Assembly: GCA_963699175.1 (NCBI GenBank)
Contig: OY969418.1
Coordinates: 1,666,791 to 1,730,790, forward strand
DNA length: 64,000 nt
From: an uncultured Acidobacteriota bacterium
GTDB lineage: Bacteria; Acidobacteriota; Blastocatellia; RBC074
Direction: 5' to 3'
Below are positions 5,181 to 49,752 of this stretch, in pieces. Positions within the stretch are counted from its first letter, which is position 1, and each line of letters starts with the position of its first letter. The notes beneath the pieces are model-generated. The model was not told the origin of the DNA, searched no databases, and saw only the letters and a program-made list of their open reading frames with translations. A program made the translations under genes and the position numbers.

Positions 5181-5284
5181 ATGTACCGTGGACTGTCCAG
5201 TCTGCGGAGGATTCGGCGTCTTGCCTTCGGTTCCAGCGGGTAAACGACGGAGACCACCGCAGACTGGACAGTCTACGGTACATT
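5181..5284. repeat. palindromic intergenic element, family A copy 1; probable rqcH terminator
   Basis: 27-bp arms ATGTACCGTGGACTGTCCAGTCTGCGG / CCGCAGACTGGACAGTCTACGGTACAT with 1 mismatch. A TTTTT run follows on the plus strand. A second copy lies at 26568-26667. Confidence 0.75.
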
Positions 5285-6767: not shown

Positions 6768-7721
6768 CTATTTTTGTTTCAGACTATCGAGATACTTCTC
6801 GACCGAGACGGCAGCTTGCACGCCGTCCGCTACGACGTTGGCCAATTGGTAGATCGGCCGCACACACAAATCGCCTGCCGCAAACAAACCCGGCACGCCT
6901 GTTTCCATCAGTTCGTTGACGTGCACGCGGCCCTGGTCGTCGAGGTTGACCATATCCTTGACTAAATCCGAATTGGGCAACCAGCCGATGAAAACGAAGA
7001 CCGCATTGACCGGGAACTCCTCTGTCTTATCGGTCTCCACATTGCGCACGCGGATGCCCGTGACTTCTTTTTGCGTGCCGTTGGTCTTGCCGTAAATTTC
7101 TTCGACGACTGAATGCCAGACGGGTTGAACGTTGGGCGCGTGCAGGTACTCTTCGATCAAAATCTTCTGCGCAGTAAATTGGTCGCGGCGATGGATGGAT
7201 TTGATGCCGGAGGCATAACGCGTCAGGAAGAAGCCTTCTTCGACCGCTGAATTGCCGCCGCCAACGACGGCGACCGGTTGGCCTCTGAAAAACGCACCGT
7301 CGCAGGTCGCGCAGACGCTCACGCCGTAGCCGAAGTAGTCCTGATAGCCCGGCACTTCCAGCGGGCGCGGGTGGCGGCCCATCGCCGCAATCACCGTCTT
7401 CGCTGTGACCGACGAGCCGTCGCCCAGGCCAATCGTGAACGTGTTATCTTCGTTGCGTGTCAGTTTTTCCGCGCCCACGCCGATGCGCACTTCCGCGCCG
7501 AAGCGTTGCGCGTGTTTCAAAAAAGCCTGCGCAAAATCGTAGCCGGTAATGCCATCCGCAAAGCCCGGATAGTTATCAATTGCCGCCGAGAAGACGATCT
7601 GCCCGCCGGGCACGCTCTTCTCCAACACCAGCGTCTTCAGCAACGATCGCCCAGTATAAACGGCGGCGGCCAACCCTGTTGGCCCACCGCCGATAATCAC
7701 TACATCGTAATCTGTGGTCAT
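6768..7721 (-). CDS. trxB: thioredoxin-disulfide reductase
   Basis: [22 protein letters not shown]... with the CATCDG redox-active motif and a second NAD(P)-binding GGGNSAVEE. Confidence 0.95.
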
Positions 7722-7728
7722 AAAACCT

Positions 7729-7817
7729 AGTTGGCAGTTGGTAGTTGACAGTTGTTAGTTGGCAGCGATGTGCAGCAACACTTCTACTGCCAACCGCCAA
7801 CTACCAACTGCCAACTG
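7729..7817. repeat. hairpin with tandem-heptamer arms (trxA-trxB intercistronic)
   Basis: Arm 1 is GTTGGCA GTTGGTA GTTGACA GTTGTTA GTTGGCAG (5 tandem GTTGNNA heptamers). Arm 2 is CTGCCAAC CGCCAAC TACCAAC TGCCAAC, which pairs with arm 1. Confidence 0.7.
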
Positions 7818-7820
7818 AAA

Positions 7821-8177
7821 TTACAGTTGCCGATCAATCATTTGCGCCAATTCCACGCTCGCATCGCTAGGGATGCCGACGCGGCGTTCGACCTCTTGGC
7901 CTTTGTTGAAAAGAATCAGCGTCGGGATGCCGCGAATGCCGTACTTGGCTGGATTTTCCAGGTTGTCATCCACGTTCATCTTGAGCACCTTGGCTTTGCC
8001 CTGAAACTTCTTGGCCACTTGTTCGACAGTCGGCGCAAGCATCCGGCAGGGCGCGCACCAGGGTGCCCAGAAATCCACCAGCACCGGCTGGTCGGACTGC
8101 AAGACTTCTTGTTCCCATTCCGTATCGTTCACTTCAGCCACAAAATCATTCATTGTCTTCTCTTGTAAATCCGCCAT
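7821..8177 (-). CDS. trxA: thioredoxin
   Basis: The WAPWCAPCRM active site and ~110 aa length fit thioredoxin. Alternative start MNDFVAEV at 8153. The 5' end carries a 24/27-bp tandem duplication. Confidence 0.9.
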   Translation of the reverse strand: MADLQEKTMNDFVAEVNDTEWEQEVLQSDQPVLVDFWAPWCAPCRMLAPTVEQVAKKFQGKAKVLKMNVDDNLENPAKYGIRGIPTLILFNKGQEVERRVGIPSDASVELAQMIDRQL

Positions 8178-8339
8178 TGTCTTCTCCTCTTGTAAATCCG
8201 CTGTCGCGGAAATTGTTTACCTCCCGCTCGGTCAGGCTACGACGCCAGACAAGCGGGAGGGATTATAGCAAACGACTGTCTAGATTGGCACACCTTCCCG
8301 GATGAAGTAAAACCCATTTTTGCCCACTATGTTGTATGC

Positions 8340-14405: not shown

Positions 14406-14773
14406 CGGCCCCACCTCACTTACCGCTCAAGTCTGCGCAGAATCATTCGGGTCTTCCGGCCAAACCCTCAGTCGGCGAAAGCAGACGCAGCACCCGGGGC
14501 GAGTTGCCAGGCTCACTCTAGCCTTTTGTTCAACCGCGCCTTGCTTGATTGACAGTCCGCGCACGCATGCATACAGTGACGGCGAGTCAGCGCGGCTTTC
14601 TCACACAGTAGTAACTACCAAAAGCCGCGCTCACCTGATGGCGAACAAGACCTATTGGCGGCGACCGAGTCATCACTCACACAATGATGCTCGTTGGCCG
14701 CACTACTGCATCGGCAATTCAACTCAAACAAAAAATCGCGCACGTCACAACGCGTACGCGGCGATACTACATA

Positions 14774-17700
14774 ATGAGACTACACACACGCAGAACGATT
14801 TGTGCGCTCAGCCTATTGCTGGGCGCAGTAGGCTTAAGTTGGTTGGGTTGGGGCGCGCAAGCTGAGCACGCAGCATTGACGCAGCGCGGCAGCCTACTGC
14901 GTGCAGCGAGTGCCACTGCGCCCGCAGCCACGCTCGCCTTCGCCTCGACCATCACTGTCAACAGCACGGATCAGGAAGTCACCAGCGCCAATCCTACCGG
15001 CATCGCCAACGGCAATTGCACACTGGGCGAAGCGATCCTCTCGGCCAATACGAACAGCAATGTCGGCGGCTGCACGGGCAGTGGTGGCGGCGCGCCCTTC
15101 ACCATCGTGCTCTCGAATGCTGCTTACACACTCACCGCGCGCGGCGATGCGAACAACAATTTCGGCTTCAACGGGCTGCCTCCAGTCACGAGCCAGATCA
15201 TCATTCAGGGCAATGGGGCGATCATCGAGCGCAACAGCGCGGACGTCACGCCTAGCTTCCGACTCTTCTACATTTCGCCAGCGGGCGACCTGACGTTGCA
15301 AGATCTGACCTTGCGCAATGGGCTGGCGCAGGGCGGCGCGGGCAACGGCGACACTACTTCAAACGGCGGCGGCGGCGGCGGGGCGGGCTTAGGCGGAGCG
15401 ATTTACAATCGGGGCAAGCTCAGCGTCATACGTAGCACACTCACCAACAACACGGCGCGGGGCGGGCAAGGCGGCAACGGCAGCGGAAATGAAGCCAGCG
15501 GTGGCGGCGGTGGCGGAGGACTGGGTGGCAACGGTGGCAGCAGCAGCGGAGCGGGCGGCGGCGGCGGCGGCGGGTTTGGCGGCAATGGCGGCACGAGCGG
15601 TACGGGTGCTGGTGGTGCGGGCGGCGGCGGCACGATGACTGATGGCGCGACCAATGGTGGCAGCAGCGGTGGGGCGGGCGGCGTTGCGAACGGCGGCAAA
15701 GGCAGCGATTCGCCTGGCAGTGCTGATAGCGGCGGTTTCGGTGGTGGCGGTGGTGGCGGTGCTACGGAGGGTGGTAGTGGTGACGGCGGCACTGGTGGCG
15801 GTGGTGGCGGTGGCGGGGCCAGCGCTGGGGGAGGCGGCTTTGGCGGTTTCGGCGGCGGTGGCGGTGGCCAGGCGAAAGAAGGCCAAGGCGGGTTCGGCGG
15901 GTTCGGTGGTGGTGGCGGCGCCGGCTTCGGCGGCGGCAGCGACTTTGGCGGCGGCACTGGTGGTGGCGGCACTGGTGGTAGCGGCGGTGGCGGCGCAGGA
16001 TTGGGCGGCGCAGTCTTCAACGATGGCTACAACATTGAAGGAGACGCTACTGTCAGCTTCAGTAACAGTACTATCTCGGGCAACTTTGCCATCGGAGGCG
16101 CGGGCGGAACGCGCTATAGTGGAAACGCCAGCGGCGGCGAGGCAGGAAAGGGACTGGGCGGCGGCGTCTTCAACCTCAACGGCACGCTCACCGTCAACAA
16201 CTCCACACTCGCCAACAACACTGCCGCGCAAGGTGGCGGCGGCCTCTACAATCTCGCAGCCTTTGAAGGTTCGGCAACCCTCAACCTCAACAGCACGATT
16301 GTCGCCGACACGGCGGGCGGCGCGACTGATTGCGTCAGCGCCGACGACTTTAGCAGTTTGACAAATACCGGGACGAACAACCTGATTGAGAAAAACGATA
16401 GTGAGGGTGCTTGCCCCGGCGCGCTCGTCACCACAGATCCACAGCTTGGAATGCTGCTAAACAACGGCGGACTGACTGCCACCCAGGCACTGTCATCGAG
16501 CAGCCCCGCATTGGACAAGGGGAAGAATCTAGACAGTCTGATGACTGACCAGCGTGGCACCGGCTTCGCGCGCAAGGTGGACCTGCCCGTCGCAAACGGC
16601 ACAGGCGATGGCACTGACATCGGAGCTTTCGAGCTTCAGGCGCTGGCTTCACCACCAACCATCAGCAAAGCTTTCAACCCAACCGGCATACAACTCAACA
16701 GCAGTTCGACGCTGAGCTTCATCATCACCAATCCCAATTCAGAAGCGGCGCTAACCGGAGTGAATTTTACTGATACTTTACCAAGCGGTTTGGTAGTTGC
16801 GACACCCAACGGTATAGGCGGCACCTGCGGCGGCACGATCACGGCCACTGAAGGCACGGGCACGGTCAGCCTGATGGGACTGAACATGTCAGCCAGCGCC
16901 TCCTGCACCATCAGCATTGATGTCACCGGCACGACTGTTGGCAGCAAAAACAACAGTGTGACGATCAACTCTGACCAGGGCCAAGGCAATACCGCCACTG
17001 CCACACTGGCTGTAGTCGCTGCGCCAACCATTGCCAAGAACTTCAACCCGACCTCCATCAATGTCGGCGGGGTAAGCCAACTCACGCTCACTTTCAGCAA
17101 CCCGGCTGGCAACGTGGCGCTAACCAACTTGGCCGTGACTGATCCGCTACCGCCAGGATTGACTGTGGCGGCCACGCCTGGACTGACGAATACCTGCAAC
17201 GGCACCGTGACGGGCGCGACAGCGGGCAGCAACTCGATCAGCTTGAGCAATGGCTCACTCGCTGCCGGGCCGAGCAGTTGCCAGGTGAAAGTCAACGTCA
17301 CCAGCGCCACGTCTGGCTCGGCGGTCAACACAACCGGCAATGTCACGGCGACCGGCAATGGCGTCAATGTGACGGGCAACACGGCCAGCGCGACACTCAC
17401 GGCCAACGTCGTAACCAGCACACCCGGCGTCACCATCGTTGACCCGTTCGGCTGCACTGGCCCTGGCGACGCGCTGACCGTGACGGTGGTCATCACCAAC
17501 ACAGCCGCCGCTGCGCAACCTGTCACCTTCAGTTCGACCCCGCTACCGGCAGGACTGGTCGGCTTGCCCGGCACCGGCACGAGCACAGTCGGCGCAGCGC
17601 CCACCGTGTCGTCCACCGGCGCGAACTTCGGCCCGGTCACACTTGCAGCGGGCCAGAGCGCGACGGTGACTTACCAAGTGCAAGTCGGCGATGTCGCCAG

Positions 17701-18706
17701 TGGCACGACGCTCTGCATCAACACTACCAGCACCTTCAGCGGCGTAGCAGGCCCGCCGGTGCAAGCCTGCGCGACGATCAATTGTCCAGCCGTCGGCCCC
17801 GGCCAGCTTTTCGGGAATGGTGAAGTAAGCGATCAGAAGGCAGGCAGTGTGTTGTTCTACAACCTCTACTCGTCGAGCATCGCCGCGCCCAACGCGCAGA
17901 ACACGCGTATTGCAATTACCAACACCAATCCCGCGCTGCCCATCGCCGTGCACTTGTTCTTCGTGGATGGAGCAACCTGCTCAATCGCCGATAGCCTAAT
18001 CTGCTTAACGCCCAATCAGACCGCCAGCTTCCTAGCTTCAGACATTGATCCGGGCACAACCGGTTACATTGTCGCGGTGGCTTCAGACTTGCGGACTGGC
18101 TGCCCCATCAATTTCAACTACCTGATTGGTGATGAGTATGTGAAGCTCTCCAGCGGCCACGCGGCTAACCTAGCGGCGGAAGGATTTGCGGCATTGGCTG
18201 GTGGCTTGCCCGCTTGCAACGGGCTCTCGGTGACTGCGCTGCTGAGCTTCGATGGCGCAAGCTACAACCGCGCACCGCGCGTACTAGCGGCCTCGAACGT
18301 ACCATCCAGGGCCAATGGCAACGACACACTGATCGTGTTGAATCGGGTGGGCGGCAGTTTGGCAGCCGGAGCCTCGACGCTCGGCGCGCTCTTCGGCATT
18401 CTCTACGATGATGCAGAGAATCCGCTGAGCTTTACTTTCACCGCAGGCCTCTGTCAGTTCCGCTCATCATTGAATAGCAGCTTCCCGCGCGTGGCGCCGC
18501 GCTTCGAACAGTTCATCCCGGCTGGGCGCAGCGGCTGGGCGAAGTTCTACTCGCAATCGGACATTGCGTTGTTGGGCGCGCAGCTTAACTTCAACACGAA
18601 TGCGGGGACGGCGGCGAATGCCTTCAATCAGGGGCACAACTTGCACAAGCTGACCTTGACGACGGCAGCGACCCTGACTATCCCAATCTTCCCGCCCAAC
18701 TGCTGA
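14774..18706 (+). CDS. giant secreted protein: beta-helix, Gly-rich repeat region, DUF11 repeats and a conserved C-terminal domain
   Basis: Start at MRLHTRRTICALSLLLGAVGLSWLGWGAQA (signal peptide); the track ORF starts at 14684. NCTLGEAILSANTN beta-helix entry motif. About 220 aa of GGxGG low-complexity. DUF11-like repeats (TISKAFNPTGIQLNSSSTLSFIITNPNSEAALTGVNFTDTLPSGL). The last ~310 aa are ~85% identical to the C-terminus of the 19060-23388 protein and end IFPPNC. Confidence 0.7.
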   Translation: MRLHTRRTICALSLLLGAVGLSWLGWGAQAEHAALTQRGSLLRAASATAPAATLAFASTITVNSTDQEVTSANPTGIANGNCTLGEAILSANTNSNVGGCTGSGGGAPFTIVLSNAAYTLTARGDANNNFGFNGLPPVTSQIIIQGNGAIIERNSADVTPSFRLFYISPAGDLTLQDLTLRNGLAQGGAGNGDTTSNGGGGGGAGLGGAIYNRGKLSVIRSTLTNNTARGGQGGNGSGNEASGGGGGGGLGGNGGSSSGAGGGGGGGFGGNGGTSGTGAGGAGGGGTMTDGATNGGSSGGAGGVANGGKGSDSPGSADSGGFGGGGGGGATEGGSGDGGTGGGGGGGGASAGGGGFGGFGGGGGGQAKEGQGGFGGFGGGGGAGFGGGSDFGGGTGGGGTGGSGGGGAGLGGAVFNDGYNIEGDATVSFSNSTISGNFAIGGAGGTRYSGNASGGEAGKGLGGGVFNLNGTLTVNNSTLANNTAAQGGGGLYNLAAFEGSATLNLNSTIVADTAGGATDCVSADDFSSLTNTGTNNLIEKNDSEGACPGALVTTDPQLGMLLNNGGLTATQALSSSSPALDKGKNLDSLMTDQRGTGFARKVDLPVANGTGDGTDIGAFELQALASPPTISKAFNPTGIQLNSSSTLSFIITNPNSEAALTGVNFTDTLPSGLVVATPNGIGGTCGGTITATEGTGTVSLMGLNMSASASCTISIDVTGTTVGSKNNSVTINSDQGQGNTATATLAVVAAPTIAKNFNPTSINVGGVSQLTLTFSNPAGNVALTNLAVTDPLPPGLTVAATPGLTNTCNGTVTGATAGSNSISLSNGSLAAGPSSCQVKVNVTSATSGSAVNTTGNVTATGNGVNVTGNTASATLTANVVTSTPGVTIVDPFGCTGPGDALTVTVVITNTAAAAQPVTFSSTPLPAGLVGLPGTGTSTVGAAPTVSSTGANFGPVTLAAGQSATVTYQVQVGDVASGTTLCINTTSTFSGVAGPPVQACATINCPAVGPGQLFGNGEVSDQKAGSVLFYNLYSSSIAAPNAQNTRIAITNTNPALPIAVHLFFVDGATCSIADSLICLTPNQTASFLASDIDPGTTGYIVAVASDLRTGCPINFNYLIGDEYVKLSSGHAANLAAEGFAALAGGLPACNGLSVTALLSFDGASYNRAPRVLAASNVPSRANGNDTLIVLNRVGGSLAAGASTLGALFGILYDDAENPLSFTFTAGLCQFRSSLNSSFPRVAPRFEQFIPAGRSGWAKFYSQSDIALLGAQLNFNTNAGTAANAFNQGHNLHKLTLTTAATLTIPIFPPNC
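17780..18706 (+). repeat. paralogous conserved C-terminal domain module, copy 1 (~85% nt identity to 22459-23388)
   Basis: CPAVGPG...VLFYNLYSSSIAAPNAQNTRIAITNT...IFPPNC versus CPLVGPG...VLVYNLYSSSISAPNQQNTRIAITNT...IFPPNC. Confidence 0.85.
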
Positions 18707-19059: not shown

Positions 19060-22000
19060 ATGATGACTAATCGGAAATTACTTATGACTACTACACACAA
19101 ACACACATTCTTTCTAAGCAAACAATCCTTCCGCTCTTCAGCAATCAAACAAACTTGTGGGCAGGCGTTCAGGTGGTTGAGCGCTCACCGTCGTTTATCT
19201 TTCTTGCTCGCGGGCTTGCTCGTGGCTGTCTTCACGTTGGCAAGTGTGGCCGTTCGTGCGGCCAAAGATGGCGGGGTGAGGCCGGGCAATTTTTCTGCCG
19301 CCTCACCGGCTGCTGCGCCTGTCGCGCCTAAAGTTGCGATGGGTACAAACATCGTCGTCAACAGCACGGCGGATGGCACGCTGGTGACGCTGGCAGGCAA
19401 CGCCACCTGCGATCTACGCGAAGCGATTCAGGCGGCCAATACGAACGCCATTGTCGGTCAGTGCCCGGCGGGCATGGCAGGGATGGACACCATTACCTTC
19501 AGCGGCGCTGGCGTCGGCACCATCACCGTCAGTTCCGTGCTGCCGACGATCGCGGAGCCGGTGACGATTGACGGCTTTCAAGGCATGAATACCTGTCCGG
19601 CGACGGGGTTGCCCGCGCCTGCGACAATGCAGGTTATTCTCAACGGCAACAATGGCAACTTCGACGGCCTGACTTTCAATGTGACCAGCGGCACAGGGCC
19701 AAGCATCGTGCGCGGGCTGGTCATACGCAATTTCAATCTGGACGGCATTCAGGTCAACACGACGAACGCAGCAAACTTCCTGACCTGCCAGTGCAACTAC
19801 ATCGGCACGGCAGCCGATGGCGTGACCGGCACGACTACCAACCGGAACGACGACAACGGCATCGAGATTGACAACTCGCCCAACAACATCATCGAGCGCA
19901 ATCTCATCTCAAATAACGGCTCCTCAACCCTCATCCCACTCGCCGCCATCGGCAGCGGCGTGGCGATTTTGAACGCGAGCGCGACCGGTAACATCGTGCG
20001 CGGCAATTACATCGGCACGGATGTTACGGGCGCGGCAGACCTGGGCAACAACCTCCAGGGCGTTAATATCAACAACGCGCCCAACAACACCATCGGCGGA
20101 ACAACAACCACTGACCGCAACGTCATCTCCGGTAATAATGCGAACGGGGTGCTCATCACTGGCGCGGGCGCTACGGGCAATAACGTGCGCGGCAATTACA
20201 TCGGTCTGGCTGCAGACGGCACGACGGTCCGCAACAACAGCATCAATGGCGTGAGCATTAGCGGCGCAGCCAACAACATTATCGGTGGCGCGACGGCAGG
20301 GGCGCGCAATGTGATCTCCGGCAATGGTTCGCTCATCGTTGGCAACGGCGTTGATATGATAGTCGCCGGCACGACCGGGAATCAGGTGCTCGGCAATTAT
20401 ATCGGCACGGATGCGACCGGTACGCTCGACCGCGGCAATGCGGTGTATGGGGTGAACATCACTGGCTTATCGGGTAACTTCGTGGGCGGAATCAACGCTG
20501 GCGAAGGCAATGTGATTTCCGGCAACGGGGGCAATGGCGTACAGCTCACCGGCGGTGGCGCAAGCAACAATAGCGTGCGCGGCAATTACATCGGCACCAA
20601 CGCCGCTGGCACTGCCGCCATCCCGAATGATTTCTTTGGAATCGGTATCGTGTTGGGCGCCCACGACAACACCATCGGTGGAACGGCCGCTGCCGCGCGC
20701 AACGTCATCTCCGGCAATGCCGGTGATGGCATCCAGATCAGCGCGGCTCTCAACAACAGCATCTTCGGTAATTACATCGGCACAAACGCCGCGGGCACGG
20801 GCGCGGTCGCCAATGGTGATGACGGCGTGGACATTCAGTTGGGTTCAAACGGCAACATGGTCGGCGGCACAGCGGCGGGCGCAGGCAACTTGATCGCCAA
20901 CAACACCTCCAATGGCGTCGAGATCAATGCCGCGGCGGGTACCACCAATTCCGTGCTCGGCAACTCCATCACCGCGAATGGTGCGCTAGGCATAGATCTG
21001 TCAACAACCGGTGTGACACTCAACGATACGGACGACCCCGACTTAGGCGCCAATAATAGGCAGAACTTCCCCGTGCTGACTTGCGCGGTCAGCAGCAATG
21101 GCCAGACCACCGTGAGCGGCTCGCTCGACAGCTTGGCCAGTACCGATTTCCGCATCGAGTTTTTTGCCAATACTGCTTGCGACGCTTCGGGCTATGGTGA
21201 AGGCCAAACCTTTCTCGGCTCGGTCAATGTCACGACCAATGCCAGCGGCGATGCGGTGATTAACACTACCCTGCCGGTGGTAGTTGCTGCCGGGAGTTCC
21301 ATCACGGCTACGGCCACCCGCCTGAATGCAGGCACTCCGGCTGAGACATCCGAGTTTTCGCAATGTCTGGCGTCGTTCGCACCGACACTGACGATCAATG
21401 ACGTCAGCTTCGCGGAAGGCAACGCCGGGATGACAGCGTTCAATTTTACGGTCACGCTCGCGGGCGCACAGGGATTCCTCTGCCCAGTCACGGTCAATTT
21501 CGGTACGGCTGACAATACGGCGACAATCGCCAACAACGATTACGCAGCGAATAGCGGGATGTTGACGTTCAATCCGCCGTTTGCTTCCAACACCGTGACG
21601 CAAACCGTCACGGTGCAGGTCAATGGCGATACGACCGTCGAAGCCAACGAGACGTTCTTCGTTAATTTGACGAACGCCACAGGGGCAACCATTACCGATG
21701 CCCAGGGACAAGGCACGATCACCAATGACGACTTCGCCACCATTGCCATCAACGATGTCAGTGTCGTCGAAGGCAACGCGGGCACTACCAACGCGACCTT
21801 CAATGTCACGATGAGCCATCCGAGCGCCGAGCAGGTAACGGTCAATTTCACTACTGCGAACGGCACGGCGACAACCGCTGGCAACGATTACGTAGCAACG
21901 AACGGCACGGTCACTTTTGCACCCGGCGTGACATCGCAAATGATCACGGTACAAGTCAACGGCGACACGACGCCGGAGACGAATGAAACTTTCTTCGTCA

Positions 22001-23388
22001 ATTTGAGCAACATTGTGGGCAACAATGCTGCCGTCCCCGATCCGACCTTCGCCAACAATGACAATCAGGGACAAGGCACGATTCTCGACGACGATTTCTT
22101 GCGCTCAAGTTTGAGCGACCCGTTGAGTTGTACGGGGCCGGGCAATGTCATCAACGGCTTGATTCAAATAACGAATCCGAACGCCGCTCAGCAATCATTC
22201 TCGCTCACGACGACTTTCACCAATCTGGTCGGCGTGCCCAACACTTGCAGTGTGACGGGGGCGCTCCCCGGAGCGCCCTGCAACATTACGGCGAGCGGAC
22301 TCACCATTCTGACTGGTATGGTCGCAGGCAACGCCACAGTCAACGTGCAATTTCAAGCACAGGTCGCTGATGCCATCAACAGCGGCACGGTCAGCACGTC
22401 TTCTGTCGCCACTGTCGGCGCATTAACGGTAGGGCCAGTCGTCGCCAGCCTCGCCGTCAATTGTCCACTCGTTGGCCCAGGCTTGCTGGCAGGCGCACAA
22501 AACCAAATCGGCGATCAAACGGCAGGCTCGGTACTGGTCTACAACCTCTACTCGTCAAGCATCTCTGCGCCTAATCAGCAAAACACGCGCATTGCGATCA
22601 CTAACACCCATCCAGGCTTGTCCATCGCTGTGCACTTGTTCTTTGTAGACGGCGCGACCTGCTCAATCGCTGACAGCTTGGTCTGTTTGACGCCAAATCA
22701 GACGGCGAGCTTCCTCGCTTCGGACATTGATCCGGGCACGACGGGTTACATCGTCGCCGTGGCGTCGAATTTGGTGACCGGCTGTCCAGTGGACTTCAAT
22801 TACTTGATTGGCGATGCGTACGTGAAGCTCTCAAGCGGGCACGCAGCCAACTTGGCTGCCGAGGGGTTTGCTGCGCTGGCCGGTGGCTTGCCCGCCTGCG
22901 ACGGTCTTTCGGTGACGGCGCTGCTGAGCTTTGACGGGACGAGCTACAACCGCGCGCCGCGTGTGCTGGCGGCCTCGAACATCCCAGCCAGAGCCGATGG
23001 CAATGACACACTGATCGTCTTGAATCGCGTGGGCGGCAGTTTGGCAGCAGGTGCGGCGACACTCGGTGCGATCTTCGGCATTCTCTATGATGATGCCGAG
23101 AACCCGCTGAGCTTCAACTTCACCGCAGGCGTCTGTCAGTTCCGCTCATCGTTGAGTAACAGCTTCCCGCGCACCGCGCCACGTTTCGAGCAGTTCATTC
23201 CAGCAGGGCGCAGCGGTTGGGCGAAGTTCTTCTCGCAATCGGACATCGCGTTGCTGGGCGCGCAGCTCAACTTCAATGCGAACGCAGGGACAGCAGCGAA
23301 TGCCTTCAATCAGGGGCACAATCTGCACAAGCTGACGCTGACATCAGCGGCGACGTTGACTGTTCCGATCTTCCCGCCGAACTGCTAA
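19060..23388 (+). CDS. giant secreted protein: right-handed parallel beta-helix repeats, 3 Calx-beta domains and the conserved C-terminal domain
   Basis: Signal-like RRLSFLLAGLLVAVFTLASVAVRA. CDLREAIQAANTN entry motif. Many NxISGNxxxGVxI beta-helix repeats. Calx-beta repeats (NDD...GDTTVEANETFFVNL, three times). C-terminal ~310 aa paralogous to 17780-18706. Confidence 0.7.
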   Translation: MMTNRKLLMTTTHKHTFFLSKQSFRSSAIKQTCGQAFRWLSAHRRLSFLLAGLLVAVFTLASVAVRAAKDGGVRPGNFSAASPAAAPVAPKVAMGTNIVVNSTADGTLVTLAGNATCDLREAIQAANTNAIVGQCPAGMAGMDTITFSGAGVGTITVSSVLPTIAEPVTIDGFQGMNTCPATGLPAPATMQVILNGNNGNFDGLTFNVTSGTGPSIVRGLVIRNFNLDGIQVNTTNAANFLTCQCNYIGTAADGVTGTTTNRNDDNGIEIDNSPNNIIERNLISNNGSSTLIPLAAIGSGVAILNASATGNIVRGNYIGTDVTGAADLGNNLQGVNINNAPNNTIGGTTTTDRNVISGNNANGVLITGAGATGNNVRGNYIGLAADGTTVRNNSINGVSISGAANNIIGGATAGARNVISGNGSLIVGNGVDMIVAGTTGNQVLGNYIGTDATGTLDRGNAVYGVNITGLSGNFVGGINAGEGNVISGNGGNGVQLTGGGASNNSVRGNYIGTNAAGTAAIPNDFFGIGIVLGAHDNTIGGTAAAARNVISGNAGDGIQISAALNNSIFGNYIGTNAAGTGAVANGDDGVDIQLGSNGNMVGGTAAGAGNLIANNTSNGVEINAAAGTTNSVLGNSITANGALGIDLSTTGVTLNDTDDPDLGANNRQNFPVLTCAVSSNGQTTVSGSLDSLASTDFRIEFFANTACDASGYGEGQTFLGSVNVTTNASGDAVINTTLPVVVAAGSSITATATRLNAGTPAETSEFSQCLASFAPTLTINDVSFAEGNAGMTAFNFTVTLAGAQGFLCPVTVNFGTADNTATIANNDYAANSGMLTFNPPFASNTVTQTVTVQVNGDTTVEANETFFVNLTNATGATITDAQGQGTITNDDFATIAINDVSVVEGNAGTTNATFNVTMSHPSAEQVTVNFTTANGTATTAGNDYVATNGTVTFAPGVTSQMITVQVNGDTTPETNETFFVNLSNIVGNNAAVPDPTFANNDNQGQGTILDDDFLRSSLSDPLSCTGPGNVINGLIQITNPNAAQQSFSLTTTFTNLVGVPNTCSVTGALPGAPCNITASGLTILTGMVAGNATVNVQFQAQVADAINSGTVSTSSVATVGALTVGPVVASLAVNCPLVGPGLLAGAQNQIGDQTAGSVLVYNLYSSSISAPNQQNTRIAITNTHPGLSIAVHLFFVDGATCSIADSLVCLTPNQTASFLASDIDPGTTGYIVAVASNLVTGCPVDFNYLIGDAYVKLSSGHAANLAAEGFAALAGGLPACDGLSVTALLSFDGTSYNRAPRVLAASNIPARADGNDTLIVLNRVGGSLAAGAATLGAIFGILYDDAENPLSFNFTAGVCQFRSSLSNSFPRTAPRFEQFIPAGRSGWAKFFSQSDIALLGAQLNFNANAGTAANAFNQGHNLHKLTLTSAATLTVPIFPPNC
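22459..23388 (+). repeat. paralogous conserved C-terminal domain module, copy 2
   Basis: See 17780-18706. Confidence 0.85.
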
Positions 23389-23411: not shown

Positions 23412-26009
23412 CTAGCGGATTTGTCGTGTAATCGTCGGATCGGTGATCTGCCGATCAGCGGCGAGCAGGAAGGCTTTGCTCAGAATGATGGCCAGCATGT
23501 TGTCGCCTTCAAAAGGAAGAAAGACTTTGCCATTCAATCCCTCAGCCGTGCCGCGCCCAGGTACGATGCACAAATACTGATCGTTCGGCTCCATCAAAAT
23601 ATTGCCGCTGCCCAAGTGGATTTTGTAGGTGCGTAACTCGCCGCGCACAATCAAAAAGCGTTCGCTGAGACGGCAACGCTCGGCAATTTTCAAGCGCGGG
23701 ATCAAGCGTTCCAACACCTGCTTGCGCGTGGCTGCTGTCGCCGTTAGTTCACCAAAGGAATACGATTGCCAGTAATCAACATAGCGCCCTTGCGGCCCGC
23801 CATCCGCCCAGTTGGGATCATTAGCCACGCTGGCCACGCCGACGAACAGATCAACATCGCGCATGATTTCGCTAAAGACGAGCGGCGGAATCTCTGCGAG
23901 CGGTAGCGGCTCAACGACCTCTCCTACACCGCGAAAAAGATTCAAGTGATACCCGCCGCCGCCCACGTGCGCTGCATTCTGCCGGGCATTGAGTGGATAG
24001 AAGCGCACCTGATCGGTCGTCAGATAAAGAAACGTGCCCGTCTCGTTCGTGTCTACGCCAAAGTTGTCGCCGACGCTCTCGACCCAAAATTCAGCGCGCA
24101 GATTACAGGCCGCCAAGTGGCGCTGCGCGGGCGGGCATTCATCATCCACCATCAGCCGCAGCTTGTTCTTCCACGCGCGATTGGCACAAAGCGCGTTGAA
24201 TTGATGCTGCTTGATGACGTGCGCGGCAAAGCGATTGGAATAGGTGTGCGTGTTGCGCTCGGCGTCGGTCAGCACGTAAATCTCGCGGTGCGCCTGTTTG
24301 AACGGCTGGCGCAGTTCATGCTCGCTCAACCATTCGCGCCAAGCCAGCACTCGCTCAGTCGGCTCATTCAATGGATGCCACAACTCAACAGTAGCGGCTT
24401 CATCTAGCCCGTCCAATGGCAACCAAGCCAACGGTGCACCGTGCACGTCAACTATCTGCCCGTCGAACCAGATGCCCGATGCCTGCTGTTCGCCCTGGCT
24501 GAATTGCCAGATCAACCGCCGCGCCAAGCTGCCGACCAATGGATGATCCAGATAACGTGCGCGCCAAACAGCGAACGGCCAGCGTCGCAGTTCAAGATAT
24601 AGATTCTCAATGCGGTCGCGTTGCGCGGGTAGCATCTTGGCAACGTCTTTGGCCGCTTGCTGCAATTCTTTCAGCTCTTCGGAGTGCTCTTCTTTGACCG
24701 CTTTGGGCACGGAGGCTTGCGCTTTGCCATCGGACTTGCGCCAGTGCAGTTCTACGTCGTGCGTGCCATTGACCACGAGTTCAGCCGTGAATTCGCCAAG
24801 CTGTTCGCGCGCGCAACCGACTTCTTGTAAGCCATAGGTCGGCACGGCAAGCTCCTCGATCTCGGCAGGCGGCAAGCCCGTGCGAGTAGCGGCGGCCAGC
24901 AAAGCCTTTTCAATTCCCTTTTGCGCCGTGCCGAATTTAACTTTTAGTTTGAGCAGCGCAAGTTGCGCGATGCCTTCCATGCCAGGCATATTGCCGAGCG
25001 CCCAGACGCAGGCATTGCCCACGCGGACGCAACGCGGGCCAAGCATCGGCACTTTGCGATAGGCCGAAACGGCTAAGGCCAGTAACGCGCGTGCCAACTC
25101 TTTATCCTCACGTTGCCCGCACAGCCAGGCCAGCCCCTTGAGGATGTCGGCATTGGTTTCTATCAACACTAAGTTGGGATTAGCTTCCCATTGCGACCAA
25201 CGCTCAACCGCTTGCGTGCGCGGTTTATCAACTAGCGGCAGCCAGCGGAGCAGCGCCGCTTTGAAATTATCGAAGCCGATAATTTCAAGCTGGGCGGTGG
25301 CGGCTTTGAGCCATTTGGGGCTTGGCGCTGAGCCTGACGGTTGCGAACAATGATCGAGCAGTTCGAGCCAGGGCTGGCGCGCCTCGGCGGCCAGCATCTC
25401 CAGTTCAACCCGCGCCACGTCGGCCCACGCATCACCCGGCACGAGCGGGCTTTTCATCGCCCGCTCGCCCAACAATTCTCTCAGTCGCTTCGCCCAGTTG
25501 CGATGCTCCATCGTTTGATAACCCTTTTCCACACGGGCCAACTGCTGTTCAATTTTGGCTCTGACAGCCGCGTCCAGTTCAGACTCCTGCGCGTAATATT
25601 CCAACTGCCTGATGACCAGCCCGGTATCGCAGTAGTAGTCCCCATCAAAATAGTCCAGCAGTCGCAGCATCTCCGTTGGCGCAAACGGTAATTTGCGTTT
25701 GAGCAAGGCGCGCATGATTTGCCGTGACGCCCAGTAAGCCGTGCTGCCGCCGCATATCATAAAAACCGCGCTCCCGGCGGCCTGGTGTTCCAAGCTCGCA
25801 TGCGACACCTGCGGCGCTGCGCTAGAGCGTTTAGTCGCAGCGGTGATCGCCAGGACAACCTGCGCCTGTTCCTGCGGCGACAGCGTCAGCAATTGACGGC
25901 CACTCGCATAGTCCTTCAAATCGTACCAATAGCTATTGCTAGCTTCGCTGCTGAGCTGCTCGATTAAGCTGTGATATTGCGTCGCGCGCTCGCGCGTTAA
26001 AACTTCCAT
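23412..26009 (-). CDS. large cytoplasmic protein, possibly DUF4132 (MolR-like) family
   Basis: 865 aa with no signal peptide. The family assignment rests only on overall architecture and the C-terminal region (..YLCIVPGRGTAEGLNGKVFLPFEGDNMLAIILSKAFLLAAD); my recognition is weak. Its start codon is 1 nt after the stop of the upstream Ubl gene. Confidence 0.45.
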   Translation of the reverse strand: MEVLTRERATQYHSLIEQLSSEASNSYWYDLKDYASGRQLLTLSPQEQAQVVLAITAATKRSSAAPQVSHASLEHQAAGSAVFMICGGSTAYWASRQIMRALLKRKLPFAPTEMLRLLDYFDGDYYCDTGLVIRQLEYYAQESELDAAVRAKIEQQLARVEKGYQTMEHRNWAKRLRELLGERAMKSPLVPGDAWADVARVELEMLAAEARQPWLELLDHCSQPSGSAPSPKWLKAATAQLEIIGFDNFKAALLRWLPLVDKPRTQAVERWSQWEANPNLVLIETNADILKGLAWLCGQREDKELARALLALAVSAYRKVPMLGPRCVRVGNACVWALGNMPGMEGIAQLALLKLKVKFGTAQKGIEKALLAAATRTGLPPAEIEELAVPTYGLQEVGCAREQLGEFTAELVVNGTHDVELHWRKSDGKAQASVPKAVKEEHSEELKELQQAAKDVAKMLPAQRDRIENLYLELRRWPFAVWRARYLDHPLVGSLARRLIWQFSQGEQQASGIWFDGQIVDVHGAPLAWLPLDGLDEAATVELWHPLNEPTERVLAWREWLSEHELRQPFKQAHREIYVLTDAERNTHTYSNRFAAHVIKQHQFNALCANRAWKNKLRLMVDDECPPAQRHLAACNLRAEFWVESVGDNFGVDTNETGTFLYLTTDQVRFYPLNARQNAAHVGGGGYHLNLFRGVGEVVEPLPLAEIPPLVFSEIMRDVDLFVGVASVANDPNWADGGPQGRYVDYWQSYSFGELTATAATRKQVLERLIPRLKIAERCRLSERFLIVRGELRTYKIHLGSGNILMEPNDQYLCIVPGRGTAEGLNGKVFLPFEGDNMLAIILSKAFLLAADRQITDPTITRQIR

Positions 26010-26010
26010 T

Positions 26011-26412
26011 TCACCCTCCTACCAAAGGCACCAGCCGCAAAAAGGTCACTTCCGTTTCCGGCTGCACCTCGATCCAATCATCCAGATTTTCCACCTGCCG
26101 CTCATTCACCAGGATGACAAAGCCGTTGCGCTGAAAAGCTTCGACGGCCTTGTCGTACTGTTCCTGCCCATCGAGCGGTTGGAATTTACGCGGACGAGCT
26201 AGGTTAAGCCTTTGCTCCATCGTTTGAGGTTGGAGCAGGCCGCGAATTTTGTCGGACTGCTGTGTGTTGTGCTCCACCACTTCACGCTCGACACGCGTGC
26301 GGATGAGTTCGCGCACGGTCAGGCGGTTGGACTTCAGCCAGAGTTTGAACACGTGCTGATCACCAAAACTGCTGTAAATTGTTTCGTCTTTGATGGTCAA
26401 GGTAGTAGACAT
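26011..26412 (-). CDS. ThiS/MoaD-like beta-grasp (ubiquitin-like) protein ending Gly-Gly, with ~45-aa internal insertion
   Basis: The C-terminus NGFVILVNERQVENLDDWIEVQPETEVTFLRLVPLVGG aligns in pattern with the ThiS/MoaD C-termini (..VN..V.......DGDEV.F.P.V.GG). The N-terminus TLTIKDETIY...HVFKLWL...LTVRELI fits beta1-beta2-alpha1. RBS AAGGAGAG. Confidence 0.45.
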   Translation of the reverse strand: MSTTLTIKDETIYSSFGDQHVFKLWLKSNRLTVRELIRTRVEREVVEHNTQQSDKIRGLLQPQTMEQRLNLARPRKFQPLDGQEQYDKAVEAFQRNGFVILVNERQVENLDDWIEVQPETEVTFLRLVPLVGG

Positions 26413-26567
26413 ACTGCACTCTCCTTGAGCTGCTGGCGCAGGTGGGCTGCGCGATTTAGGACCAAAGGAAGGATCAGATTAGCGCGCTGTTTATACGTGA
26501 GAATAACGGCAAAAGTTTACAGCCGGGCTGAAATAATTATTGCTGTAACAAAACGAGGGCAGAAGCT

Positions 26568-26667
26568 GTACCGTAGACTGTCCAGTCTGCGGAAGATTCG
26601 GCGTTATACCCTCTGGCCACAGTAGGTAAACGACCAAGTCTTCCGCAGACTGGACAGTCTACGGTAC
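26568..26667. repeat. palindromic intergenic element, family A copy 2
   Basis: Perfect 28-bp arms GTACCGTAGACTGTCCAGTCTGCGGAAG / CTTCCGCAGACTGGACAGTCTACGGTAC. The loop shares GATTCGGCG and GGTAAACGAC with copy 1 at 5181-5284. Confidence 0.75.
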
Positions 26668-46653: not shown

Positions 46654-46785
46654 GCGGCCTTCGTCCCTGAGCTTGACGATCTCTTCCTTGATATGTCACA
46701 TGTCCGCGCGGCAGGCGACAAGGAACAATCTACTCATTGTGTCCAATTTGATTTTCAGGACTTCCGATTCGGAGATAAGTTCAAC

Positions 46786-49665: not shown

Positions 49666-49752
49666 AGGCTTTGTCAGGTTGGTTTGGCAGTAAATTGAAG
49701 CCGGTGCTTATTTATCTCCGAGACTAGCAACACTTTGAACTGGCGCAGCCTG

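What the first reader, a model, noticed from the sequence alone, without database searches (positions are those of the whole stretch)
23412..26412. Translationally coupled operon: ThiS/MoaD-like ubiquitin-like protein ending Gly-Gly followed by an 865-aa DUF4132-like protein
The 133-aa protein has a beta-grasp N-terminus (LTIKDETIY..HVFKLWL..LTVRELI) and a C-terminus (FVILVNERQVENLDDWIEVQPETEVTFLRLVPLVGG) that matches the ThiS/MoaD pattern, including the terminal di-glycine. A ~45-aa insertion sits between them. Its stop overlaps the RBS of the large downstream gene, which starts 1 nt later, so the two are co-expressed. No ThiF/MoeB-like E1, no thiamine or molybdopterin genes and no JAB peptidase are nearby. 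A free-GG Ubl tied to a large uncharacterised protein is the signature of prokaryotic Ubl-conjugation or sulfur-carrier-like systems. DUF4132-type proteins are more usually described next to WGR-domain proteins, so this pairing looks unusual.
Basis: partly seen in the sequence, partly recalled or inferred. Interest (0 to 1): 0.65.

Follow-up and report, generated by a model that had tools for sequence, protein, structure and literature searches.

The report
DNA-damage-linked bacterial ubiquitin-like protein pair
The window holds a two-gene unit, a small ubiquitin/MoaD-shaped protein that always ends in a free Gly-Gly and a large DUF4132 protein made right after it; the pair is conserved across many bacterial phyla, has no known activating enzyme beside it, and in Deinococcus and actinomycetes sits behind DNA-damage-response promoter motifs, so it looks like an unrecognised stress-response system.

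The parts
26011..26412 (-). Small ubiquitin-like (MoaD-like beta-grasp) gene, 133 aa plus stop. It belongs to an unannotated family.
26420..26426 (-). Shine-Dalgarno-like AAGGAGA, 7 nt upstream of the small gene's ATG.
   Evidence: Read directly from the sequence.
26158..26265 (-). Family-specific segment of the small protein (aa 50-85), inserted between helix 1 and the C-terminal half of the beta-grasp. Conserved motif F-x-G-L-[VL]-Q-P...E...L-N-G. Modelled with low confidence.
   Evidence: pLDDT below 60 for aa 51-70. Conserved columns G58, L59, P62, E66, Q85. Absent in the 93-106-aa Streptomyces forms.
26014..26019 (-). Codons of the terminal Gly-Gly (GGA GGG). They also serve as the Shine-Dalgarno core (GGAGG) for the large gene.
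   Evidence: GG ends 71 of 71 full-length homologs. GG is kept in 27 of 27 uncoupled or reversed arrangements with varied codons. GGAGG is used in 48% of tightly coupled loci and 20-24% of the others.
23412..26009 (-). Large partner gene, 865 aa plus stop. It starts 1 nt after the small gene's stop codon.
   Evidence: At least 1,419 homolog clusters. At least 576 loci among GTDB species genomes.
24840..26009 (-). N-terminal alpha-solenoid (aa 1-390). Its first 250 aa are poorly conserved.
24171..24827 (-). Beta-meander plus DUF4132 domain (aa 395-613; Pfam match aa 428-613). This is the part shared with E. coli YehI/MolR-type proteins.
   Evidence: Pfam E 1.3e-49. pLDDT about 85. Homology to YehI covers window aa 346-591 only. 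Invariant W544-H545-P546 and Q568-PFKQA-x-RE-x-Y578.
23733..24170 (-). Unannotated, very highly conserved middle module (aa 614-759), rich in invariant charged residues: R638, E640, D666, R669, E714, R717, D718, D720.
   Evidence: Conservation across 78 proteins from many phyla. Poorly modelled. Absent from YehI.
23418..23732 (-). DUF7737 domain (aa 760-864), with conserved C779, H798, C814, D810 and D836.
   Evidence: Pfam E 2.1e-42. Conservation 91-95% or higher. pLDDT below 50.

Best explanation
This is a two-gene, stress-induced ubiquitin-like module. The small protein is a MoaD/SAMP-like beta-grasp whose working part is its free C-terminal Gly-Gly. It is made in step with the large protein, through translational coupling, and most likely forms a dedicated complex with it, as MoaD does with MoaE. 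In that complex the hydrophobic ...L-V-P-L-V-G-G tail would reach into the large protein's highly conserved C-terminal module (aa ~592-865, including DUF7737). That module is found only in the Ubl-associated subfamily. I propose that the Gly-Gly carboxylate is chemically activated as an acyl-adenylate. It would then become a thiocarboxylate, which I slightly favour, or be transferred to an acceptor. Activation would be by a housekeeping MoeB/ThiF-type E1 encoded elsewhere, as in archaeal SAMP/UbaA, or by the partner itself. The variable N-terminal solenoid would recruit a substrate. Expression responds to DNA damage in at least some lineages. Shown here: the fold, Gly-Gly invariance at the protein level, near-obligate gene pairing, coupling, absence of an E1/E2/JAB gene in cis, and damage-type promoter motifs in Deinococcus and Actinomycetia. 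Inferred: the physical complex, tail docking, activation chemistry, the substrate, and damage induction in the window's own organism.
For: Fold: beta-grasp, best match MoaD. The D. radiodurans homolog was independently predicted to resemble 5MPO and SAMP1. Gly-Gly: it ends 71 of 71 full-length copies that are 33-58% identical to the window protein. It is kept in 27 of 27 loci where it cannot act as an RBS. The one apparent exception, L058, is a G8 homopolymer indel. The few longer proteins inspected among the best 150 profile hits look like frameshift or readthrough artefacts, not true fusions. Pairing: 72 of 80 loci have the small gene adjacent on the same strand, and 7 of the 8 negatives are cut by contig ends. 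The pair occurs in either gene order. Coupling: 49 of 66 junctions have a gap of 10 nt or less, median 3.5 nt. E. coli moaD-moaE has the same GG-codon/SD/1-nt architecture. No third conserved gene exists, and no ThiF-like ORF occurs in the window or the 89 loci. The partner looks enzyme-like: 85 residues are at least 97% conserved across phyla and concentrated in aa 300-865. The C-terminal module is absent from the Ubl-less E. coli YehI. Damage link: DRA0165-DRA0166 is a DdrO target with an RDRM at -83, and DRA0166 is induced by mitomycin C in an IrrE-dependent way (PMC8533742). DR_A0165 rises after gamma rays and H2O2 (PMC9650054) and scores 49 bits against the family HMM. A perfect RDRM palindrome lies at -29 in D. 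pimensis, against a background of 9 hits per 1.09 Mb. Exact PafBC motifs (consensus from PMC8635444) lie at -27/-28 in two Streptomyces and one Micromonospora. These are the only 3 strict matches in 2.18 Mb.
Against: There is no direct evidence of a complex or of any C-terminal chemistry. The small protein has no significant sequence similarity to ThiS or MoaD. The large protein shows no similarity to MoaE, ThiG, ThiF or any solved enzyme. Its C-terminal third was modelled at pLDDT below 50, so nothing about a pocket is shown. A long alpha-solenoid and tandem paralogs (L026, L028, L034, L045, L052) are unusual for a biosynthetic enzyme. No damage-type operator was recognised upstream of the window's own operon or in the large Planctomycetota, Verrucomicrobiota and Cyanobacteria groups. 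The D. radiodurans deletion phenotype (more H2O2-resistant; Trx1 pull-down) does not point to a specific chemistry. One paper reports no RDRM upstream of DR_A0165, contradicting the other.
Confidence: 0.42

Rival explanations
1. This is a self-contained minimal protein-tagging system. The large protein's conserved C-terminal module would be a new kind of Ubl-activating and ligating enzyme, not E1-like. It would adenylate the Gly-Gly end and attach the small protein to targets chosen by the N-terminal solenoid, or to itself, as a DNA-damage signal.
For: Strict terminal Gly-Gly. No E1 or E2 in cis in any of 89 loci, and no other conserved partner. The C-terminal module carries invariant acidic and basic residues and a Gly-rich loop (G684-G685), with C779 and C814 conserved at 91-95%. 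The variable N-terminal solenoid and tandem paralogs sharing one Ubl would suit several substrate-specific ligases using one tag. Damage-regulated expression.
Against: No fold or sequence similarity to E1, E2, ATP-grasp-type or any other ligase was detected. No deconjugating peptidase is conserved nearby. Tight 1:1 translational coupling is more typical of stoichiometric complexes than of an enzyme and its tag. Whether higher-mass conjugates form in D. radiodurans was not checked here.
Confidence: 0.25
2. The small protein is a non-covalent regulatory or structural subunit. The beta-grasp protein simply binds the large protein, or bridges it to other proteins such as thioredoxin. The Gly-Gly tail is conserved only because it fits a binding groove, and no chemistry occurs at the C-terminus.
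For: Near-obligate pairing and coupling fit any stable complex. Many beta-grasp domains are purely adaptors. In D. radiodurans the small protein pulled down Trx1 and many cytoplasmic proteins, and acted as a negative modulator of oxidative-stress resistance. There is no E1 in cis.
Against: Absolute conservation of a terminal Gly-Gly followed directly by the stop codon, in 71 of 71 copies at 33-58% identity and with no true extensions or fusions seen, is characteristic of proteins whose carboxylate is activated, and is rare in adaptor beta-grasp domains. One Streptomyces genome keeps the small gene behind its PafBC promoter motif although the large gene is gone (L002). That suggests it can act without the partner.
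Confidence: 0.23
3. This is an anti-phage defence or toxin-antitoxin-like conflict system related to the bacterial Bil/Bub/CBASS ubiquitin-like pathways.
For: Bacterial Ubl operons described recently are mostly linked to defence. Tandem paralog expansion and a variable N-terminal domain resemble conflict systems.
Against: No PADLOC hit. No E1, E2 or JAB. Neighbours are unrelated housekeeping or generic genes that differ from locus to locus. The small gene is absent from 50,697 phage records and found in only 4 of 72,556 plasmid records. The C-terminal half is about 70% identical across the hits, unlike fast-evolving defence genes.
Confidence: 0.05
4. The terminal Gly-Gly is a by-product of DNA-level selection for a Shine-Dalgarno sequence (GGAGG) serving the coupled downstream gene, and is not a protein feature.
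For: GGAGG lies within the Gly-Gly codons in 48% of tightly coupled loci, including the window.
Against: Gly-Gly is kept in 17 of 17 loci with gaps over 10 nt, and in 10 of 10 loci with reversed order, an orphan small gene or no large gene downstream. Codon choice there is varied, with only 20-24% GGAGG.
Confidence: 0.02

Closest known systems
MoaD-MoaE (molybdopterin synthase) and ThiS-ThiG sulfur-carrier pairs
   Same: A small beta-grasp protein with a free C-terminal Gly-Gly, whose best structural match here is MoaD. It is encoded immediately upstream of its partner, with the same coupling architecture: E. coli moaD-moaE reads GGA GGT TAA G ATG and the window reads GGA GGG TGA A ATG.
   Different: No significant sequence similarity to MoaD or ThiS. 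The partner is an 865-aa solenoid+DUF4132+DUF7737 protein unrelated to MoaE or ThiG. There are no cofactor-biosynthesis genes or E1 nearby. The small protein has a conserved extra segment of about 36 aa.
Archaeal SAMPs with UbaA, Thermus TtuB, eukaryotic Urm1 (dual sulfur carrier and protein modifier, with the E1 encoded elsewhere; from my own knowledge of that literature)
   Different: Those Ubls are not paired with a dedicated large partner gene. Whether an E1 acts in trans here is unknown, and conjugates have not been looked for.
Bacterial ubiquitination-like operons (Bil, Bub, CBASS Cap2/Cap3; papers listed)
   Same: A bacterial ubiquitin-like beta-grasp protein that needs a Gly-type C-terminus.
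   Different: Those operons encode E1, E2 and usually a JAB or other deubiquitinase, and are linked to defence. None of these features is present here.
E. coli yehF-yehH(molR)-yehI locus (WGR plus DUF4132 proteins; SOS/LexA regulon)
   Same: It shares the DUF4132 core: window aa 346-591 align with YehI 872-1118. It is DNA-damage-regulated: molR is listed with a known SOS box (PMC6590174), and a LexA-like box ends 10 nt before the yehF ATG.
   Different: YehI lacks the C-terminal module and DUF7737. Its partner is a WGR protein, not a Ubl. YehK is unrelated to the small protein and does not end Gly-Gly. No WGR-like ORF lies near any Ubl-type pair.
Deinococcus radiodurans DR_A0165 (SEP068184) and DR_A0166
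   Same: The same family: DR_A0165 ends ...LRLTALAGG and scores 49 bits against the family HMM. DR_A0166 carries DUF4132 and is described as probably in the same operon. D. pimensis has the full pair behind an RDRM.
   Different: DR_A0165 is a short form (a 104-aa protein by the supplement's BLAST row) that appears to lack most of the middle segment. The authors regarded it as specific to Deinococcus and did not link its function to DR_A0166 or to its Gly-Gly end. The window's organism is unrelated, and regulation of its operon is unknown.

Membership tests
ThiS/MoaD sulfur-carrier family (Pfam ThiS, PF02597) | Beta-grasp (ubiquitin-like) fold | tested here: met
ThiS/MoaD sulfur-carrier family (Pfam ThiS, PF02597) | Free C-terminal Gly-Gly | tested here: met
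   ...VGG then stop in the window. Present in 71 of 71 full-length homologs and selected at the protein level.
ThiS/MoaD sulfur-carrier family (Pfam ThiS, PF02597) | Significant sequence or profile match to the family | tested here: not met
   No Pfam or NCBIfam hit for the window protein. None of the 31 aligned members hits ThiS or a ubiquitin family at E<=10. hhalign against E. coli MoaD gives probability 0.8%; ThiS gives 0.3%.
ThiS/MoaD sulfur-carrier family (Pfam ThiS, PF02597) | Works with a ThiF/MoeB-type adenylyltransferase (E1) | tested here: inconclusive
   No ThiF-like ORF in the 64-kb window or in the 89 loci. An E1 encoded elsewhere in the 9.5-Mb genome cannot be checked with these tools.
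ThiS/MoaD sulfur-carrier family (Pfam ThiS, PF02597) | Partner is a sulfur-accepting enzyme of the MoaE, ThiG or CysM type | tested here: not met
   hhalign of the large protein against MoaE, ThiG and ThiF gives probabilities of 1.2% or less. There are no such Pfam domains.
ThiS/MoaD sulfur-carrier family (Pfam ThiS, PF02597) | C-terminal thiocarboxylate formed in vivo | not testable with these tools
   Needs intact-protein mass spectrometry.
Bacterial E1-E2-(JAB) ubiquitination-like operons (Bil/Bub/CBASS-Cap2) | E1 and E2 (or a fusion of them) encoded in the operon | tested here: not met
   No conserved third gene. No ThiF-like ORF. No PADLOC hit.
Bacterial E1-E2-(JAB) ubiquitination-like operons (Bil/Bub/CBASS-Cap2) | JAB or other deconjugating peptidase nearby | tested here: not met
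   None appears in the called genes of loci L001-L009, the recurrent neighbour clusters or the window's flanking genes.
SAMP/TtuB/Urm1-type Ubl with a trans-encoded E1 | MoaD-like beta-grasp with terminal Gly-Gly and no adjacent E1 | tested here: met
SAMP/TtuB/Urm1-type Ubl with a trans-encoded E1 | Forms isopeptide conjugates and/or a thiocarboxylate through a shared E1 | not testable with these tools
   Needs biochemistry or genetics.
DUF4132 (PF13569) and DUF7737 (PF24879) proteins | Pfam matches above the gathering score | tested here: met
   169 bits and 143.7 bits against cut-offs of 27.
E. coli MolR/YehI-type (WGR-associated DUF4132) | WGR domain in the protein or in an adjacent gene | tested here: not met
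   No WGR Pfam hit in the large protein. No YehF-like ORF in the window or the 89 loci.
E. coli MolR/YehI-type (WGR-associated DUF4132) | Same domain architecture | tested here: not met
   YehI ends shortly after DUF4132 and has no DUF7737. Homology is limited to window aa 346-591.
DR_A0165/DR_A0166-type damage-regulon operon (Deinococcus) | Small protein homologous to DR_A0165, adjacent to a DUF4132 protein | tested here: met
   DR_A0165 scores 49 bits (E about 1e-13 at proteome scale) against the HMM of the window's family. The pair is present in D. pimensis L089.
DR_A0165/DR_A0166-type damage-regulon operon (Deinococcus) | DNA-damage-responsive promoter or operator upstream | tested here: inconclusive
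   Met in D. pimensis (RDRM at -29) and in Streptomyces and Micromonospora (PafBC motif). For the window's own operon no known operator was recognised, and its phylum and damage regulator are unknown.

The most novel reading that the evidence does not exclude
The DUF4132-DUF7737 protein is a new, non-E1 class of enzyme that activates and transfers a ubiquitin-like protein. Together with its Gly-Gly partner it would form a minimal two-gene protein-tagging (or sulfur-relay) system that bacteria of many phyla switch on after DNA damage. That would make it a bacterial counterpart of the ubiquitin/SUMO branch of the eukaryotic damage response. It would also offer a first functional lead for the SOS-regulated DUF4132 protein MolR of E. 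coli, which shares the DUF4132 core but has no Ubl partner.
Probability: 0.2. Interest if true: 0.92.

Novelty: new variant of a known kind. Interest (0 to 1): 0.74.

Why it matters
Three points make this matter.
- It defines a large ubiquitin-like protein family (2,648 clusters at 50% identity) that has no Pfam, NCBIfam or PADLOC model. The one paper that studied a member took it to be specific to Deinococcus.
- It gives DUF4132+DUF7737 proteins a near-obligate partner and a concrete, testable hypothesis: chemistry at a Gly-Gly C-terminus.
- It ties the module to DNA-damage regulons run by unrelated regulators: DdrO/IrrE in Deinococcus and PafBC in actinomycetes. LexA controls the related WGR-type locus in E. 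coli.

molR has been listed as an SOS gene since about 2000, and I found no paper that explains what it does. If the Gly-Gly end is activated without a classical E1, that would be a new route to Ubl activation. If a housekeeping E1 is used, it extends the SAMP/Urm1-like dual-use logic to many bacterial phyla. Either way, the experiments are straightforward in D. radiodurans or Streptomyces.

Tried and rejected
- Sequence membership of the small protein in ThiS/MoaD or ubiquitin families: rejected.
- PDB sequence searches with both proteins and both profiles: nothing.
- hhalign of the large protein against E. coli ThiF, ThiG, MoaE, MoaD and ThiS: negative. The best hit is a short, non-significant DxxhFVGV[TA]S match to MoaE.
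- Third homolog search with the C-terminal 300 aa, hoping for informative fusions: only the same architecture came back.
- Apparent Ubl-DUF4132 fusion P0268 and extended forms P0194 and P0195: frameshift or readthrough artefacts. The L058 extension is a G8 homopolymer indel.
- E. coli YehK as a possible Ubl counterpart: rejected.
- Thioredoxin or rhodanese as recurrent neighbours (suggested by D. radiodurans and L003-L005): not recurrent.
- A conserved third gene: none. The top neighbour clusters are generic sigma-54 activators, kinases, ABC transporters and TPR proteins.
- Gly-Gly as an RBS by-product: rejected.
- The long hairpin upstream of the operon as a specific operator: rejected, because it is a dispersed repeat.
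- LexA-type boxes (gamma, Cheo, cyanobacterial, alpha, Verrucomicrobia types) across 75 upstream regions: at chance level, except a perfect Cheo box in Chloroflexota L020.
- De novo palindrome search in phylum groups: nothing shared except cyanobacterial HIP1.
- Defence-system reading: no PADLOC hit, no phage hits, very few plasmid hits.
- Literature searches for DUF4132, yehI, DUF7737 and the WGR/SWIM/MoxR combination: no functional study of the pair. The 2006 survey of prokaryotic Ubl neighbourhoods does not mention it.


Full report
**1. What is in the sequence.**

On the minus strand there are two ORFs. The first is 26011..26412 (133 aa). The second is 23412..26009 (865 aa). The junction reads GTA GGA GGG TGA A ATG. 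The small protein therefore ends Val-Gly-Gly, its stop is followed by one base, and then comes the ATG of the large gene. The Gly-Gly codons themselves spell GGAGG five bases before that ATG. An AAGGAGA lies 7 nt upstream of the small gene's ATG.

The large protein matches Pfam DUF4132 (aa 428-613, E 1.3e-49) and DUF7737 (aa 760-864, E 2.1e-42). The small protein matches nothing in Pfam, NCBIfam or PADLOC.

**2. The small protein is a real, widespread ubiquitin-like protein.**

- The word-indexed search found 59 homolog clusters. A full profile search over 1.84 billion representatives found 2,648 at E<=1e-3 and 1,640 at E<=1e-10. In the best 150 listed, almost all are standalone proteins of about 130 aa, and the match runs to the last residue.
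- The longer hits I inspected are gene-calling artefacts.
- An AlphaFold model built with the family alignment (pLDDT 71, pTM 0.63) has the order beta-beta-alpha-(low-confidence segment)-alpha-beta-beta-beta-beta.
- At the sequence level it is not a detectable ThiS/MoaD member. None of 31 members hits ThiS or ubiquitin families even at E<=10. hhalign against E. coli MoaD aligns the last 37 residues in register, Gly-Gly on Gly-Gly, but at 0.8% probability. ThiS gives nothing.
- Across 71 full-length copies from independent genomes (33-58% identical to the window protein), every one ends Gly-Gly.
It is absent only from short actinomycete forms and apparently from the short D. radiodurans form.

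**3. The pairing is near-obligate.**

Starting from small-protein homologs, five distinct genomic contexts have a DUF4132(+DUF7737) gene directly adjacent. One has the reversed order with an ankyrin-fused partner. One Streptomyces genome has lost the large gene.

I fetched the best 80. They come from Acidobacteriota, Planctomycetota, Verrucomicrobiota, Cyanobacteria, Chloroflexota, Actinobacteria, Deinococcus, Pseudomonas and other groups.

An HMM of the small family finds a same-strand neighbour in 72 of the 80. Seven of the eight negatives have the large gene at a contig end. Only L041 is an evaluable locus without it. So the rate is 72 of 73.

Caveat: these are the 80 closest relatives (45-60% identity), so the rate among more distant DUF7737 proteins was not measured.

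No third gene is conserved. The commonest neighbour cluster occurs in 8 loci, and the top clusters are generic families. A search with E. coli ThiF finds no E1-like ORF in the window or in any of the 89 loci. In the window, the flanking genes scanned are housekeeping or secreted-protein genes.

**4. Coupling, and the ribosome-binding-site caveat.**

In 49 of 66 small-to-large junctions, the gap between stop and start is 10 nt or less (median 3.5 nt), and six junctions overlap.

Because Gly-Gly codons can spell GGAGG, the Gly-Gly end might have been a DNA-level by-product. It is not. Gly-Gly is kept in 17 of 17 loci with longer gaps, and in 10 of 10 loci with reversed order, an orphan small gene or no large gene downstream. 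Codons there are varied, and GGAGG is used in 20-24% of cases against 48% in tightly coupled loci.

The dual use is the same as in E. coli moaD-moaE, where the junction reads GGA GGT TAA G ATG.

**5. The large protein.**

The AlphaFold model (pLDDT 72) gives three regions:
- a confident alpha-solenoid (aa 1-390);
- a confident beta-meander plus DUF4132 region (aa ~395-590);
- a poorly modelled C-terminal third.

Conservation is strongly polarised. The first 250 aa are variable, while aa 300-865 hold 85 residues that are at least 97% conserved across phyla. These include many charged residues (K571, R575, E576, E584, R593, H597, H602, R638, E640, D666, R669, E714, R717, D718, D720) and 15 tryptophans. 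C779, H798 and C814 are 91-95% conserved. This looks like an enzyme or an elaborate binding site, but I could not assign a fold.

E. coli YehI is homologous only over window aa 346-591 and ends soon after. The C-terminal module (aa ~592-865, including DUF7737) is therefore specific to the Ubl-associated subfamily, and it is the obvious candidate for the part that deals with the Ubl. That last step is inference.

hhalign against ThiF, ThiG and MoaE is negative.

**6. An unexpected link to DNA damage.**

- A paper on the D. radiodurans radiation/desiccation regulon reports that the drA0165-drA0166 operon has a DdrO site (RDRM) at -83 and is strongly derepressed when DdrO is depleted. It also reports that DRA0166, a DUF4132 protein, is induced by mitomycin C in an IrrE-dependent manner (PMC8533742).
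- A second paper studied DR_A0165 as a small-ORF peptide. It was detected by MS, rose after gamma rays and H2O2, was predicted to resemble MPT synthase 5MPO and SAMP1, and pulled down thioredoxin. Its deletion improved H2O2 survival. The authors thought it was specific to Deinococcus and reported no RDRM (PMC9650054).
- Its sequence, taken from their supplement, ends ...LLLLRLTALAGG and scores 49 bits against my family HMM. So it is a member.
- I then scanned 75 upstream regions. The only RDRM-type match is a perfect palindrome, TTACGCTGTGAGCGTAA, at -29 of the Ubl gene in D. pimensis. The background is 9 matches per 1.09 Mb.
- The actinobacterial PafBC damage-promoter motif has the consensus tGTCgg(N10)tA(N3)T (PMC8635444; its role is described in PMC6789036). 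It matches at -27/-28 of the Ubl start in two Streptomyces and one Micromonospora. These are the only three strict matches in 2.18 Mb scanned. The two Streptomyces are not independent of each other.
- A perfect Cheo-type LexA box sits at -34 in a Chloroflexota locus. This is only suggestive, given 25 perfect boxes per 1.09 Mb.
- For the related WGR-type locus, E. coli molR is listed among LexA-regulated genes with a known SOS box (PMC6590174). A LexA-like box ends 10 nt before the yehF ATG.
- No operator was recognised for the window's own operon or for the large Planctomycetota, Verrucomicrobiota and Cyanobacteria groups. Damage control is therefore shown only for some lineages.

**7. Most likely mechanism, and its rivals.**

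I favour a MoaD-MoaE-like arrangement, at about 0.42. In it:
- the small protein is co-produced with the large protein and bound by it;
- its flexible hydrophobic tail delivers the Gly-Gly carboxylate to the conserved C-terminal module;
- the carboxylate is activated, by a housekeeping E1 in trans (as with archaeal SAMPs, from my knowledge of that field) or by the partner itself;
- the N-terminal solenoid brings a substrate;
- the unit is switched on by genotoxic stress.

The steps shown here are fold, Gly-Gly selection, pairing, coupling, absence of a cis E1/E2/JAB, and damage-type promoters in two clades. The complex, the chemistry and the substrate are inferred.

Rivals:
- a self-contained tagging system in which the partner is a new kind of activating and ligating enzyme (about 0.25);
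- a purely non-covalent subunit (about 0.23);
- a defence or toxin-antitoxin system (about 0.05; no PADLOC hit, no phage hits, almost no plasmid hits, housekeeping contexts);
- an RBS artefact (rejected).

Weak hints toward sulfur or thiol chemistry exist but are not recurrent: a rhodanese upstream in one lineage, and a thioredoxin upstream with a pull-down in D. radiodurans. Neither recurs across loci.

**8. Comparison with known systems, and novelty.**

It works most like a MoaD/SAMP-type Ubl. It is not a member of the ThiS/MoaD family by sequence, and it lacks that family's partners. It is not a Bil/Bub/CBASS-type operon. Its partner belongs to DUF4132 and DUF7737, but to a different architecture from E. 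coli MolR/YehI.

One member pair has been studied experimentally in D. radiodurans, without recognition of the Gly-Gly Ubl nature, the partnership or the wide distribution. The searchable literature contains no functional description of the pairing. I cannot exclude a mention under other names in papers outside the library.

I rate it a new variant of a known kind, with interest 0.74.

Noticed in passing
window 26571-26664 and 5186-5278: There is a long hairpin with arms CCGTAGACTGTCCAGTCTGCGGAAGA, about 42 nt apart. It lies between the ricin-lectin-like gene and the Ubl gene. A second, slightly diverged copy pair lies 21 kb away (0 matches expected by chance). It looks like a dispersed REP/MITE-like palindromic element, not an operon-specific operator.
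   Followed up: partly
window 14684-18706 and 19060-23388 (+ strand): Two giant tandem paralogs (1340 and 1442 aa) have N-terminal hydrophobic segments that suggest secretion. They share a near-identical C-terminal domain of about 300 aa ending ...IPIFPPNC. The first also has a very long Gly-rich region. The second converges on the large DUF4132 gene with only 23 nt between the two stop codons.
   Followed up: no
window 49168-49707 (- strand): A 180-aa TIR-domain protein (TIR_2 E 2e-31; weak ThsB_TIR match) lies next to a 1236-aa ORF (45424-49134). It may be a defence-related gene and is unrelated to the finding.
   Followed up: no
L012 about 5090-5120 and L013 about 360-390 (upstream of the Ubl gene): Two Acidobacteriota loci share a palindrome, TTGTTTCAT-N3-ATGAAAC, immediately followed by a -10-like TATATT/TATAAT. 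It is a candidate operator overlapping the promoter of the pair. The regulator is unknown.
   Followed up: no
L011 and L033 (Rubrobacter), about 50 nt upstream of the Ubl start: A conserved element, GCCGTACGCTTC(TC)GTA(T)ACGTT, contains repeated CGTACG. It may be an operator in this radiation-resistant genus.
   Followed up: no
L026, L028, L034, L045, L052: These loci have tandem arrays of two or three large DUF4132+DUF7737 paralogs. The arrays usually share a single Ubl gene: L028 is Ubl-large-large and L034 is Ubl-large-large-large. L026 has two Ubl genes.
   Followed up: partly
L002 (Streptomyces sp. NPDC053367) versus L006 (Streptomyces sp. NPDC096132): The neighbourhoods share many of the same flanking genes, but L002 keeps only the Ubl gene behind its intact PafBC motif, and the DUF4132 gene is absent there. 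This suggests the Ubl can be retained on its own.
   Followed up: partly
literature: PMC8533742 versus PMC9650054: The two D. radiodurans papers disagree. One lists an RDRM (GGTTATGCTATTTACATAAC) at -83 of DRA0165 with DdrO dependence. The other states that no RDRM exists upstream of DR_A0165. The second paper's C-terminal tags would also mask the Gly-Gly end.
   Followed up: partly
window large protein aa 718-727 (nt about 23829-23858) versus E. coli MoaE aa 92-101: There is a short motif resemblance: DVDLFVGVAS in the large protein against DEIVFVGVTS in MoaE. From memory, that MoaE strand leads into its active-site His-Arg. hhalign gives probability 1.2%, so it may be chance.
   Followed up: partly
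L003/L004/L005, about 120 nt upstream of the Ubl gene: A 120-aa rhodanese gene directly precedes the Ubl gene in one lineage. This is intriguing for a sulfur-carrier reading, but it is not seen in any other locus.
   Followed up: yes
window 6771-8216: A thioredoxin-reductase-like gene and a thioredoxin gene lie about 18 kb from the pair. This is too far to imply linkage. I mention it only because D. radiodurans has a thioredoxin immediately upstream of DR_A0165.
   Followed up: no
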